From assembly GCF_054482595.1 (NCBI RefSeq), contig NZ_CM137008.1: 64,000 nt of DNA. The stretch is one strand, 5' to 3'. The position numbers are program-made. This document shows positions 42,001-45,000 of the stretch, one piece after another. How positions within the stretch are numbered: position 1 is the stretch's first letter; every line of letters begins with the position of its first letter.

Positions 42001-45000
42001 CGCCTGTTCAATACAGGACAACAGTGCTGCCGAATCCGTTTTATCCTCATTGTTGTCAAAGATAATTCCGGATTCGCAGTCGATATTGTCCTGCAGCCAC
42101 GCAATCAGAATATCCAGTGCGGTTTCCGTGGTTAATGATTTCATGTTGCTCCTGGTTACCAGTTGAAAGTGGGTAAACCCGGCAGGCATTCAGCGCTGGC
42201 ATCCAGATGAATGAGACTGACACCATAACGTCGGGTAAGTGTGACAACCAGACGGCGGAACGTTTTTGACAGCCCCAGGCGCTTAAGCCGCAGAACCGGA
42301 TACGGCCACGCATCAGTACGTAACAGATAGCCGCTGCCGGTAAAATGAATCCATTCTGATTCACCGAAGTCACTGGTCTGGTGTGACAGCGAGTACAGCC
42401 AGGCGTTGTCCGTTTCCGTGATATGTGCGGTACTGCAGTGTATACCGGTCAGGACAGCAAATGGTGGCATGCAGTCTGTTGAGGCCCGGTCAGATGCATC
42501 AACAACACGAAGGGAGTGGCCATTATCACAGACCACGTTAATCAGTTCAGCGAGATTAACACCATCGACGTCAACGACAATGCGTCCCATGTTCAGTGCC
42601 TGCACGTTAATGCTGTCGGCTTCCAGCGTCAGGGCCAGTTTCATTGTTTCGCCTCCGGATGTTTCCCCTGGGTAATGTTATTTACCGTTCTGTAGTTATC
42701 GCGGGTCATCAGGCCGGTTGCCCTGCGAGCCCGGAGAATATCAATACTGTTTATTAACTGAGAGCGGGTACAGGCGCTGAATCCCGGCTGGTCGGTACGT
42801 ATCAGTGCGTATTTTTCAACGAGAAAGTTCACCGTATCACACAGTGAAATGCCAGCTTCAATATGCTGCTCAATCACACGTTCATCGGCGAACGGTGTGT
42901 CATTCAGTGTGAGGCCATAGTGCTGGTCCAGCAACCGGGACAGCAGTGTCTGCCAGATGGTGACGGGAGGCGGGCAGCGCGATGCCTCCCGTACATGCGT
43001 GTCGGGTAATGTTTTCATACTGAAGATTTTCCTGATATGCAGAGATGAAAAATGGAAAAGTGGCGTGGTGAAAACACCAGGCCGGAGCAGAAGGTTATTC
43101 CGGAGAGTTAATTTTTCATTTCGGGTGTCGGATAAACAGCCAGATAAACGTAACCACAGGAGCCGAGGGTGTCGGCTTCACAGGTCAGCCCCTTCGCATA
43201 CAGTGTCACGGTATGCTGATGGCGGGGATTCAGTTCACCGCTGGTGAGCATGAGCTCCAGTTGTTTCATCAGCAGCGGAAAGGCCTGGTCCAGATGGTAC
43301 GCATCCGCGTCGCTGAACCGGCCTCTGATACCGGCGCGGTCGGCAAGGTAATGCAACTGATTGCCCTCCTGCACCAGACGGGCGCCGAAACAGGGCGTCA
43401 CGGTGCAGGGTAGTCCCCACCAGGGACGGTCATGATTGTCATCGGGATGCGTTGTCCCGGAGAGTGTGTCTGACACGATAAAATCCTCACAGAAAATCGG
43501 TGAATGATAGTTTAACGATGACGGGTCAGCCGGCGCGCAGACCGGCTTCGGTGAAGGTGTATTCGTTGATGAGTAGGGCCTCATCCACAGCGGCGTCTGA
43601 GGTCAGCCAGTCGTACTCGTTTTCCAGTTGACGGTACAACCAGAAGGCCAGGCCGCGCAGGGCTTCGCTGACAGCGGCTTCCGCATCGGTTGTCATAGTC
43701 TGACCAGTCGGACTGTTCTGGGTGACGGTGATATCCATGCTGTACGGATGGCAGTAGCGTCCCCTGTGGTGGATTTCAGCCTGCAGTTGCCAGAAGTTAC
43801 GCTTTTGCACCGCCTGCAGGGCATCCGCGATACGATGAAGTTCATGCTCCTGTGGGGCATACTTCCGGATTCTTCTGACTGTCGCTGGCTGCCAGTGCCA
43901 GCGTCCTTCAAAACAGGCTCCGTCCCCCTGGCTGCAGAATCCGCTGAACCAGATGCTCGGCTCCTCCATAAACCTGCCGTTGCTGAGCCGGAAAACGCGC
44001 TGGCGGAGGTCAATTCCGAAAATGCCACAGACCTCCCTGAAGTCTTCATACACGTTTTCATACCAGTTGCTGTCAGCATGATGCTGACGGTACCCGTCGC
44101 GGGCTTTTTCCTGTGCGGTGGAGGATAGCTCATTCAGTGTATACACGGTGGTGGTGATAATTCTGTTCATCAGAATTCCCTTCCTGGCTCAGTTCAGGGT
44201 GACGCTCATCAGCCGGACATACGGGCCAAAACTGTCCTTACGGCGTTCTGCAAACACGGCCAGTACACCGGGAATATCCTGCACTTCACGACCGGTATAC
44301 GCTTCAGTGCTGCCGTGCCAGCGGTATTTGCCGGTGCAGAACGGAAAAAGACGGGATGCAGGATGCTGTTGGTGAATACGCATGGCTTCACCACGGGTGA
44401 TGATTTTCATAGTGGGATACCTCTGAAGACAGAAGATAAAAGTGAAAACAGGTGTGATGTGGTTGTGACGGTGACGGGTTAAAGCAGACCATGTTCGGCA
44501 AAGGAGAAAACCTGGCTGCCACCGACTATCAGATGGTCCGGCACCCGGATATCCACCAGGCCCAGTGCCTGTACCAGACGTTCCGTGATAAGGCGGTCTG
44601 CCTTGCTGGGTGTGACTTCACCGGACGGGTGATTGTGTGTCAGCACCACAGCAGCGGCATTGTGATACAGGGCGCGTTTAATCACTTCACGGGGATGGAC
44701 TTCCGTGCGGTTGATGGTGCCGGTGAAGAGGGTTTCACCGGCAATCAGCTGATTCTGGTTGTTCAGATACAGCACCCGGAACTCTTCACGCTCCAGTCCC
44801 GCCATGTTCAGAATCAGCCATTCTCGTGCCGCACGGGTGGAGGTGAAGGCCACGCCGGGTTCATGAAGATGGCGGTCCAGGGTTTTCAGGGCCCGTTGAA
44901 TGAGGCTGCGCTCGCCGGGCGTCATCTCTCCGGGCAGAAAGGAAAGCTGTTGCATTGTACTTCTCTCCATTCAGTCGATGATGCGCATAATGGCGCTGCA

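What the first reader, a model, noticed from the sequence alone, without database searches (positions are those of the whole stretch)
42641..43476. CbtA/CbeA type IV toxin-antitoxin pair
The toxin ORF has long identical blocks to YeeV/CbtA, which inhibits FtsZ and MreB polymerisation. The upstream ORF matches YeeU/CbeA, with a GTG start 36 codons inside the ORF-track reading. The pair looks intact and is embedded in the canonical island module.
Basis: partly seen in the sequence, partly recalled or inferred. Interest (0 to 1): 0.35.

Follow-up and report, generated by a model that had tools for sequence, protein, structure and literature searches.

The report
Ordinary CbtA/CbeA toxin-antitoxin gene pair

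Summary
On the minus strand, 42641..43018 encodes a 125-aa protein that matches Pfam CbtA_toxin end to end (E 4.9e-61). It is 88% identical to K-12 CbtA, with identical runs of 43 and 37 residues. 43108..43476 encodes a 122-aa CbeA antitoxin (Pfam E 3.3e-55; 94% identical to K-12 CbeA; PDB 2H28 E 2.6e-79). Its GTG start and the 25 nt upstream match the curated K-12 cbeA start. Both genes are full length and under purifying selection (dN/dS 0.11 and 0.07). The 2.4-kb stretch is 100% identical to RefSeq E. coli genomes, where the genes are annotated as a CbtA family toxin and cbeA. DNA matching this 2.4-kb stretch occurs in 4950 of 5426 complete E. coli genomes, at a median of 3 places per genome. 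The pair lies 1.7 kb inside the attR end of a pheV-type island, within the usual module of DUF932, antirestriction, RadC, DUF987, CbeA, CbtA and DUF5983.

Three minor nuances:
- The toxin carries the commoner N-terminal allele, with Cys15 instead of K-12 Arg15.
- An extra 214-aa gene sits just upstream of cbeA.
- A full-length DUF5983 gene overlaps the toxin stop codon.

Mechanism is inferred from homology only. Verdict: already known, low interest.

The parts
42641..43018 (-). cbtA-family toxin gene, 125 aa plus TGA stop
   Evidence: Pfam PF06755 E 4.9e-61, full-length match. 88% identical to K-12 CbtA, F65 conserved, Cys15. dN/dS for codons 25-124 is 0.07. Identical to RefSeq WP_001774607.1.
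43108..43476 (-). cbeA antitoxin gene, 122 aa, GTG start, TAA stop
   Evidence: Pfam PF06154 E 3.3e-55. PDB 2H28 YeeU E 2.6e-79 over residues 1-122. 94% identical to K-12 CbeA. dN/dS 0.11. RefSeq cbeA WP_001774606.1.
43484..43488 (-). GAGGA ribosome-binding site, 7 nt before the cbeA GTG
   Evidence: Read from the sequence. K-12 has AAGGA at the same place, with otherwise identical surrounding sequence.
43477..43584 (-). 36-codon upstream extension of the cbeA reading frame, judged non-coding for CbeA
   Evidence: It overlaps the 3' end of the 214-aa gene (43526..), and homology to the K-12 sequence upstream of cbeA stops about 25 nt before the GTG.
43019..43107 (-). 89-nt spacer between cbeA and cbtA, with a weak toxin ribosome-binding site (AGGA at 43030..43033, 11 nt from the ATG) and predicted hairpins
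   Evidence: Nearly identical to the 88-nt K-12 spacer: 4 substitutions and 1 indel (88 nt stated in PMC5371832). RNA fold -19.6 kcal/mol, z -2.28; UUUUCAU pairs with the AUGAAAA start region. A terminator-like hairpin at 43079..43061 is weak.
42156..42644 (-). DUF5983 (YeeW-like) gene, 162 aa; its ATG overlaps the toxin stop (ATGA). Context and a possible third partner.
   Evidence: Pfam PF25638 and PF19419. GGAGG 7 nt upstream of the ATG. K-12 yeeW is a 64-aa truncated relative, 64% identical.
43526..44170 (-). 214-aa gene of unknown function directly upstream of cbeA (context)
   Evidence: No Pfam-A hit. phrog_5162 E 1.4e-35. RefSeq labels it 'DUF8835' or hypothetical. Absent from the three K-12 loci.
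40888..40909 (-). attR: 22-nt copy of the 3' end of tRNA-Phe (pheV) with one base deleted; marks the end of the island
   Evidence: Alignment with the K-12 yghD-pheV interval is identical up to this point and unrelated beyond it. Coordinates.
41893..41919 (-). Terminator-like hairpin after DUF957; likely end of the transcription unit that contains the pair
   Evidence: Consensus scan: 10-pair stem with 7 G-C pairs and a T run. A pattern match only.

Best explanation
This is a functional-looking CbtA/CbeA (YeeV/YeeU) toxin-antitoxin pair carried near the attR end of a pheV-integrated, CP4-type genomic island in E. coli. The steps below are inferred from the K-12 homologues.

- The 125-aa toxin binds the H6/H7 loop of FtsZ through a surface that includes Phe65, and probably also binds the flat double-filament face of MreB. 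This blocks cell division and elongation when the toxin is in excess.
- The 122-aa antitoxin does not bind the toxin. It binds FtsZ and MreB filaments and bundles them, which offsets the toxin. This is the type IV mode.
- The two genes are co-transcribed, antitoxin first. The antitoxin has a good ribosome-binding site. The toxin has a poorly spaced one, and a hairpin may cover its start codon. Together these would keep the toxin level low.

Shown here: family membership, intact genes, gene order, purifying selection, island location, and prior annotation of identical proteins. Inferred: toxicity, targets, mode of neutralisation and expression ratio.
For: Full-length Pfam matches for both genes. 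The antitoxin is 94% identical to K-12 CbeA and matches crystallised YeeU 2H28 at E 2.6e-79. The toxin is 88% identical to K-12 CbtA, and 96 of 100 residues match over positions 25-124. Phe65, needed for FtsZ binding in CbtA, YkfI and YpjF (PMC5624674), is invariant across 31 homologues including this one. dN/dS against K-12 is 0.11 for cbeA and 0.07 for the cbtA core. The GTG start, upstream sequence and spacer match K-12. Identical DNA is annotated as a CbtA family toxin and cbeA in RefSeq genomes; 43 records match at 99% or more. The attR lies 1.7 kb away, which fits 'near the prophage attachment sites' (PMC5371832). The type IV mechanism and cross-neutralisation are described for the K-12 proteins (PMC5624674; PMC5371832).
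Against: There is no experiment on this allele. Position 15 is Cys, and R15C abolishes MreB binding in K-12 CbtA. Three substitutions (S17P, A62T, V73I) are unique among the 31 sequences compared, and A62T lies three residues from Phe65. No sigma-70-like promoter was found on the coding strand near the pair, so expression depends on upstream genes. [quoted passage not shown]
Confidence: 0.85

Rival explanations
1. The toxin is a division-only inhibitor. Because it has Cys15 instead of Arg15, it binds FtsZ but not MreB, and so gives filaments rather than lemon-shaped cells.
For: R15C specifically abolishes the MreB interaction of K-12 CbtA and turns the phenotype into filamentation (PMC5624674). 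This toxin has Arg14-Cys15, and its whole N-terminal segment (codons 2-25) is about 50% divergent at the DNA level from K-12.
Against: YpjF and YkfI naturally have Cys15 and still block elongation. YpjF binds MreB in the two-hybrid assay, and C15R changes nothing in either protein. The Cys15 allele class is the commoner one in the sampled clusters.
Confidence: 0.2
2. The functional unit is larger than two genes. The downstream DUF5983 gene, translationally coupled to the toxin, is a third partner that modulates or neutralises the toxin, and the 214-aa upstream gene may also take part.
For: The DUF5983 ATG overlaps the toxin stop and has a strong GGAGG. DUF5983 sits under the match in all the RefSeq hits listed. 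A SLING survey scored CbtA_toxin/DUF5983 as a recurrent pairing, always downstream of the toxin (PMC10790755). A 2026 preprint links DUF5983 and a neighbouring domain to cbtA/cbeA loci.
Against: In K-12, yeeW is truncated to 64 aa, and the annotated features next to ykfI and ypjF are short pseudogenes. Even so, the cloned toxin and antitoxin genes alone give toxicity and rescue (PMC5371832). Gene linkage within a conserved island module does not show a functional link.
Confidence: 0.12
3. The pair is an inactive relic. The private substitutions S17P, A62T and V73I, or the lack of its own promoter, have silenced the toxin, and the genes persist only by hitch-hiking on the island.
For: The three substitutions are not seen in 30 other family members. 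No promoter-like site was found on the coding strand. Many CP4-type islands are decaying, with pseudogenes in K-12 and in related loci.
Against: Both reading frames are complete, and dN/dS is far below 1. The exact allele recurs at 99-100% DNA identity in 43 records from unrelated hosts, and at two or more chromosomal sites. The substitutions are conservative in character.
Confidence: 0.08
4. The antitoxin neutralises the toxin by direct binding (type II-like) rather than by protecting the targets.
For: Most protein antitoxins work this way. The type IV assignment rests on few studies of one homologue. Nothing in the sequence decides the question.
Against: The cited work reports no CbtA-CbeA interaction, direct CbeA binding to FtsZ and MreB, and rescue from unrelated FtsZ inhibitors (summarised in PMC5624674, and PMC5371832). 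Each of the three K-12 antitoxins neutralises each of the three toxins despite 56-61% toxin identity. That fits protection at the level of the targets.
Confidence: 0.07

Closest known systems
CbtA/CbeA (YeeV/YeeU) of cryptic prophage CP4-44, E. coli K-12
   Same: The same two Pfam families and the same gene order and strand. The same GTG start for the antitoxin and a near-identical 88/89-nt spacer. Antitoxin 94% identical, toxin 88% identical, Phe65 kept. Downstream YeeW/DUF5983 gene with a 4-nt overlap; upstream RadC, DUF987 and Ag43.
   Different: The toxin N-terminal segment (residues 6-24) is a different allele with Cys15 in place of Arg15. The toxin has one extra C-terminal residue. A 214-aa gene is inserted between DUF987 and cbeA. 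DUF5983 is full length here. yeeR is absent, and DUF905, DUF932 and antirestriction genes take its place. The island is at pheV rather than the CP4-44 site.
YkfI/YafW (CP4-6) and YpjF/YfjZ (CP4-57), E. coli K-12
   Same: The same families. Cys15 and Phe65 are shared with this toxin. The upstream module of antirestriction, RadC and DUF987 resembles the one here.
   Different: Only 56-61% toxin identity and 63-68% antitoxin identity. Those toxins lack the C-terminal tail, their antitoxins lack the 14-residue N-terminal segment, and their spacer is 20 nt rather than 89.
RefSeq proteins WP_001774607.1 (CbtA family toxin) and WP_001774606.1 (CbeA), e.g. in E. coli strains Santai, YJ4 and LR14
   Same: The DNA is 100% identical over 2401 bases (Santai, LR14) or 99.8% identical (YJ4). 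The neighbouring genes are the same, and in YJ4 the junction with yghD is also the same.
   Different: In Santai the module lies next to cadC, and in LR14 next to another integrase gene, so the chromosomal site differs. No complete genome in the collection matches the whole 8.5-kb junction region at 99% or more over its full length.

Membership tests
CbtA toxin family (Pfam PF06755) | Full-length match to the family profile above the curated cut-off | tested here: met
   204.1 bits against a cut-off of 25, E 4.9e-61, profile positions 1-112 of 112. 1205 homologues at E <= 1e-20.
CbtA toxin family (Pfam PF06755) | Phe65, the residue required for FtsZ binding in CbtA, YkfI and YpjF | tested here: met
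   F65 is invariant across 31 aligned sequences including this one. Its role is taken from PMC5624674.
CbtA toxin family (Pfam PF06755) | Arg15, the residue required for MreB binding in K-12 CbtA | tested here: not met
   Position 15 is Cys, preceded by Arg14. This is not a family-wide requirement: YkfI and YpjF also have Cys15, and C15R has no effect in them. All 18 database clusters of this N-terminal allele class have Cys15.
CbeA antitoxin family (Pfam PF06154; YeeU fold, PDB 2H28) | Full-length match to the profile and to the solved YeeU structure's sequence | tested here: met
   185.3 bits against a cut-off of 27, E 3.3e-55. 2H28 at E 2.6e-79 over residues 1-122; 2INW at E 4.5e-79. 94% identical to K-12 CbeA.
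CbtA/CbeA type IV toxin-antitoxin system | Antitoxin gene immediately upstream of the toxin gene on the same strand, within one transcription unit | tested here: met
   cbeA 43108..43476 and cbtA 42641..43018 are both on the minus strand, separated by an 89-nt spacer homologous to the K-12 spacer. Co-transcription is inferred, not shown.
CbtA/CbeA type IV toxin-antitoxin system | Toxin expressed alone arrests growth and deforms cells; the antitoxin relieves this | not testable with these tools
   Requires expression experiments. Shown only for the K-12 homologues (PMC5371832, PMC5624674).
CbtA/CbeA type IV toxin-antitoxin system | The antitoxin does not bind the toxin but binds and bundles FtsZ and MreB filaments | not testable with these tools
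   Biochemical property reported for K-12 CbeA (cited). Nothing in the sequence tests it.
CP4-type (P4-like) integrative island module | Located near an attachment site of a tRNA-integrated island, with RadC, DUF987, antirestriction and Ag43 neighbours | tested here: met
   attR copy of the pheV 3' end at 40888..40909. Neighbouring genes identified by Pfam and by RefSeq annotation of identical DNA. The tRNA and integrase end of the island lies outside the window.

The most novel reading that the evidence does not exclude
The commonest natural CbtA allele class, to which this toxin belongs, has an N-terminus of the type DTHVREASRCP with Cys15. It may engage MreB differently from the K-12 reference protein, or not at all. 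The full-length, translationally coupled DUF5983 protein, truncated to 64 aa in the K-12 CP4-44 locus where most experiments were done, may be a third partner that sets toxin activity. If so, the two-gene type IV picture drawn from K-12 would describe a degraded version of a three-gene system.
Probability: 0.1. Interest if true: 0.4.

Novelty: already known. Interest (0 to 1): 0.08.

Why it matters
It matters little beyond correct annotation. The pair is one more copy of a family found in more than 90% of complete E. coli genomes, often several times per genome. It marks the distal end of a pheV island and may help keep that island in place. The only open points concern the family as a whole rather than this locus: what triggers the toxin, whether Cys15 alleles bind MreB, and whether DUF5983 has a role.

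Tried and rejected
- NCBIfam and PADLOC gave no hit for toxin or antitoxin. Those libraries have no model that matches, so this says nothing against the call.
- The PDB sequence search for the toxin found nothing meaningful (best E 0.64). An AlphaFold2 model built from 31 close homologues was all-helical but only moderately confident (pLDDT 71, pTM 0.46). Foldseek against the PDB gave no match below E 5, so the model gives no insight into the fold.
- I tested whether the 89-nt spacer is unusually conserved, as a hidden regulatory element would be. Its divergence from K-12 (2-3 differences per 45 nt) is no lower than in much of the flanking coding sequence, so I dropped the idea. The predicted hairpins are only modestly better than shuffled sequence (z -2.28).
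- Rfam found no RNA family in or next to the pair.
- The promoter scan found nothing on the coding strand. The two antisense hits are fewer than chance expects (2 against 3.9).
- The antisense ORFs (42863..43009, 42957..43247 and 43213..43413, plus strand) have no support and were taken as chance.
- An exact or 3-mismatch search for the pheV 3' end failed because the copy has a 1-base deletion. Alignment with K-12 found it.
- ARAGORN found no tRNA in the window.
- The toxin family is almost absent from phage records (1 of 50,697, a 3.2-kb fragment) and rare on plasmids (66 of 72,556). 'Prophage' is therefore a loose label for these islands.

Full report

- The toxin ORF is 42641..43018, 125 aa, with an ATG start.
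- The antitoxin ORF runs 43108..43584. The GTG at 43476..43474 lies 36 codons inside it and gives a 122-aa product.
- The toxin matches Pfam CbtA_toxin (PF06755) over the whole profile, E 4.9e-61.
- The 122-aa product matches CbeA_antitoxin (PF06154), E 3.3e-55.
- The antitoxin matches the crystallised YeeU protein 2H28 at E 2.6e-79 from residue 1 to 122, and Shigella 2INW at E 4.5e-79.
- The toxin has no solved relative.
- A tblastn search of the window finds only one copy of each gene.

**Comparison with the K-12 reference loci.** I fetched the three K-12 pairs and aligned them.

| Comparison | Toxin identity | Antitoxin identity |
|---|---|---|
| CbtA / CbeA (CP4-44) | 88% | 94% |
| YkfI / YafW (CP4-6) | 56% | 63% |
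| YpjF / YfjZ (CP4-57) | 61% | 68% |

- Over toxin residues 25-124, 96 of 100 positions are identical to CbtA. The longest identical runs are 43 and 37 residues.
- Curated K-12 cbeA uses the same GTG start. Its upstream sequence (CCGATTTTCTGT[A/G]AGGATTTTATCGTG) is conserved, and homology to the K-12 sequence upstream of cbeA stops about 25 nt before the GTG.
- A GAGGA lies 7 nt before the GTG.
- The 89-nt spacer differs from the 88-nt K-12 spacer by four substitutions and one indel. The 88-nt length is stated in PMC5371832.
- Nei-Gojobori estimates against K-12 give dN/dS of 0.11 for cbeA and 0.07 for cbtA codons 25-124.

Both genes are therefore intact and under constraint.

**Already annotated.**

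- The 2.4-kb stretch 42100..44500 is 100% identical to five RefSeq E. coli chromosomes and 99.8% identical to many more. In all of them the genes are labelled 'TA system toxin CbtA family protein' (WP_001774607.1) and 'cbeA' (WP_001774606.1).
- This stretch matches 4950 of 5426 complete E. coli genomes, at a median of 3 places per genome.
- The protein database holds 1205 toxin homologues at E <= 1e-20. Those that carry a source name are labelled toxin, CbtA or YeeV.
- The family is nearly absent from phage records (1 of 50,697) and rare on plasmids (66 of 72,556).

**Context.** The T2SS genes gspK, gspL and yghD/gspM end at 40739.

- Alignment with K-12 shows identity through the yghD-pheV intergenic region, up to a 22-nt copy of the pheV 3' end at 40888..40909 that has one base deleted. 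Beyond it the sequences are unrelated. This is the attR end of a pheV-type island.
- The island runs rightward past the end of the window, and there is no tRNA in the window.
- Reading leftward on the minus strand, the genes are: Ag43 (46760..49681), DUF905, DUF932, antirestriction, RadC/JAB, DUF987, a 214-aa gene, cbeA, cbtA, DUF5983, DUF957, a terminator-like hairpin (41919..41893), then DUF4942.
This fits Wen et al..
- The differences from CP4-44 are the extra 214-aa gene (phrog_5162, now 'DUF8835'), the full-length DUF5983 in place of the 64-aa yeeW, and DUF905, DUF932 and antirestriction genes in place of yeeR.
- The same module sits at 100% identity next to cadC in strain Santai and next to another integrase in strain LR14. 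It therefore moves or recombines between sites.
- No complete genome in the collection matches the 8.5-kb junction region at 99% or more over its full length.

**Mechanism (inferred).**

- Heller et al. (PMC5624674) showed that K-12 CbtA binds the FtsZ H6/H7 loop and the flat face of MreB independently.
- In that work, F65S abolishes FtsZ binding and R15C abolishes MreB binding. Toxicity is relieved only when both substitutions are combined.
- YkfI and YpjF behave alike, although both have Cys15.
- CbeA is reported to bind and bundle FtsZ and MreB filaments rather than to bind the toxin. This is the type IV mode.
- Each of the three K-12 antitoxins neutralises each of the three toxins, and neither toxin nor antitoxin autoregulates the operon (PMC5371832).
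- Phe65 is conserved in the toxin here, so FtsZ targeting is the safest inference.
- Position 15 is Cys, preceded by Arg14, so MreB targeting is likely but less sure.
- The toxin's AGGA is 11 nt from its ATG, and a predicted hairpin pairs UUUUCAU with the AUGAAAA start region. This suggests low toxin translation relative to the antitoxin. It is an inference from weak evidence (z -2.28).

**The one feature that departs from K-12.**

- DNA divergence from K-12 is under 10% across most of the locus, but reaches about 50% over 43015..42941, which is toxin codons 2-25.
- An alignment of 31 family members shows two N-terminal allele classes.

| Allele class | Database clusters | Member sequences |
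|---|---|---|
| This one (DTHVREAS-x-C-P…) | 18 | 10,511 |
| K-12 type (VLPGQAASSRP…) | 7 | 2,666 |

- So the toxin here carries the commoner class, and K-12 Arg15 is the minority state.
- Three substitutions (S17P, A62T, V73I) are private to this allele among the sequences compared. They recur in all genomes that carry the identical DNA.

**Dead ends.**

- The AlphaFold2 toxin model was helical but of moderate confidence (pLDDT 71, pTM 0.46), and it had no PDB fold match.
- The spacer is no more conserved than the flanking coding DNA.
- Rfam, PADLOC and NCBIfam added nothing for the pair.
- No promoter-like site was found on the coding strand.

**Verdict.** The feature is already known and already annotated with identical proteins, so interest is low. 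The residual open points are whether Cys15 alleles bind MreB and whether DUF5983 has a role. These concern the family rather than this locus.

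Noticed in passing
window 43526..44170 (-): A 214-aa gene of unknown function lies between DUF987 and cbeA. 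It has no Pfam-A hit here, matches phrog_5162 at E 1.4e-35, and is labelled 'DUF8835' in recent RefSeq. It is absent from all three K-12 CbtA-type loci. Its 3' end overlaps the spurious upstream extension of the cbeA reading frame.
   Followed up: partly
window 42156..42644 (-): A full-length DUF5983 (YeeW-like) gene of 162 aa. Its ATG overlaps the toxin stop codon (ATGA) and has a GGAGG 7 nt upstream. K-12 yeeW is a 64-aa truncated version (64% identical). Two papers note that DUF5983 is consistently linked to cbtA (PMC10790755; bioRxiv 10.64898/2026.06.09.728211).
   Followed up: partly
window 40888..40909: An imperfect 22-nt copy of the pheV tRNA 3' end, with one base deleted, marks the island boundary next to yghD. 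The island extends past position 64000, and no tRNA gene is in the window.
   Followed up: yes
window 42941..43015 (-): The first ~25 codons of the toxin are about 50% divergent at the DNA level from K-12 cbtA, while the flanks differ by under 10%. This is a mosaic N-terminal allele. Across the family there are two allele classes, and K-12 has the rarer one.
   Followed up: yes
window 49625..49861 (-): Rfam IS102/IsrC-type small RNA (RF00124, 74.6 bits, E 2.9e-11) just upstream of the Ag43 autotransporter gene. K-12 has isrC in the same position before flu.
   Followed up: no
window 41020..50000, compared with L001 (strain Santai) and L007 (strain LR14): The module from DUF4942 to Ag43 lies next to cadC in strain Santai and next to a second, frameshifted integrase in strain LR14. 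The 2.4 kb around the pair is 100% identical in both. The window joins this module directly to yghD. No complete E. coli genome in the collection matches the 8.5-kb junction at 99% or more over its full length.
   Followed up: partly
window 46406..46435, 46713..46739 and 41893..41919 (-): Three strong terminator-like hairpins follow DUF905, Ag43 and DUF957. They suggest that DUF932 through DUF957, including the toxin-antitoxin pair, form one transcription unit of about 4.5 kb.
   Followed up: no
window 23935..40739 (+): A large ORF of 1526 aa is followed by a set of T2SS-beta genes whose ORFs appear uninterrupted, including a 497-aa ORF at 33327..34820 at the gspE position. In the otherwise similar strain YJ4, gspE carries an internal stop. 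Only gspK, gspL and yghD were identified directly; the rest is inferred from the YJ4 annotation.
   Followed up: no
K-12 locus L005 5920..6869: RefSeq K-12 now names the CP4-57 antirestriction and RadC-like genes upstream of yfjZ-ypjF as lfgA and lfgB ('CP4-57 prophage protease'). This suggests recent functional work on the RadC-like neighbours of these toxin-antitoxin pairs, which I did not look up.
   Followed up: no
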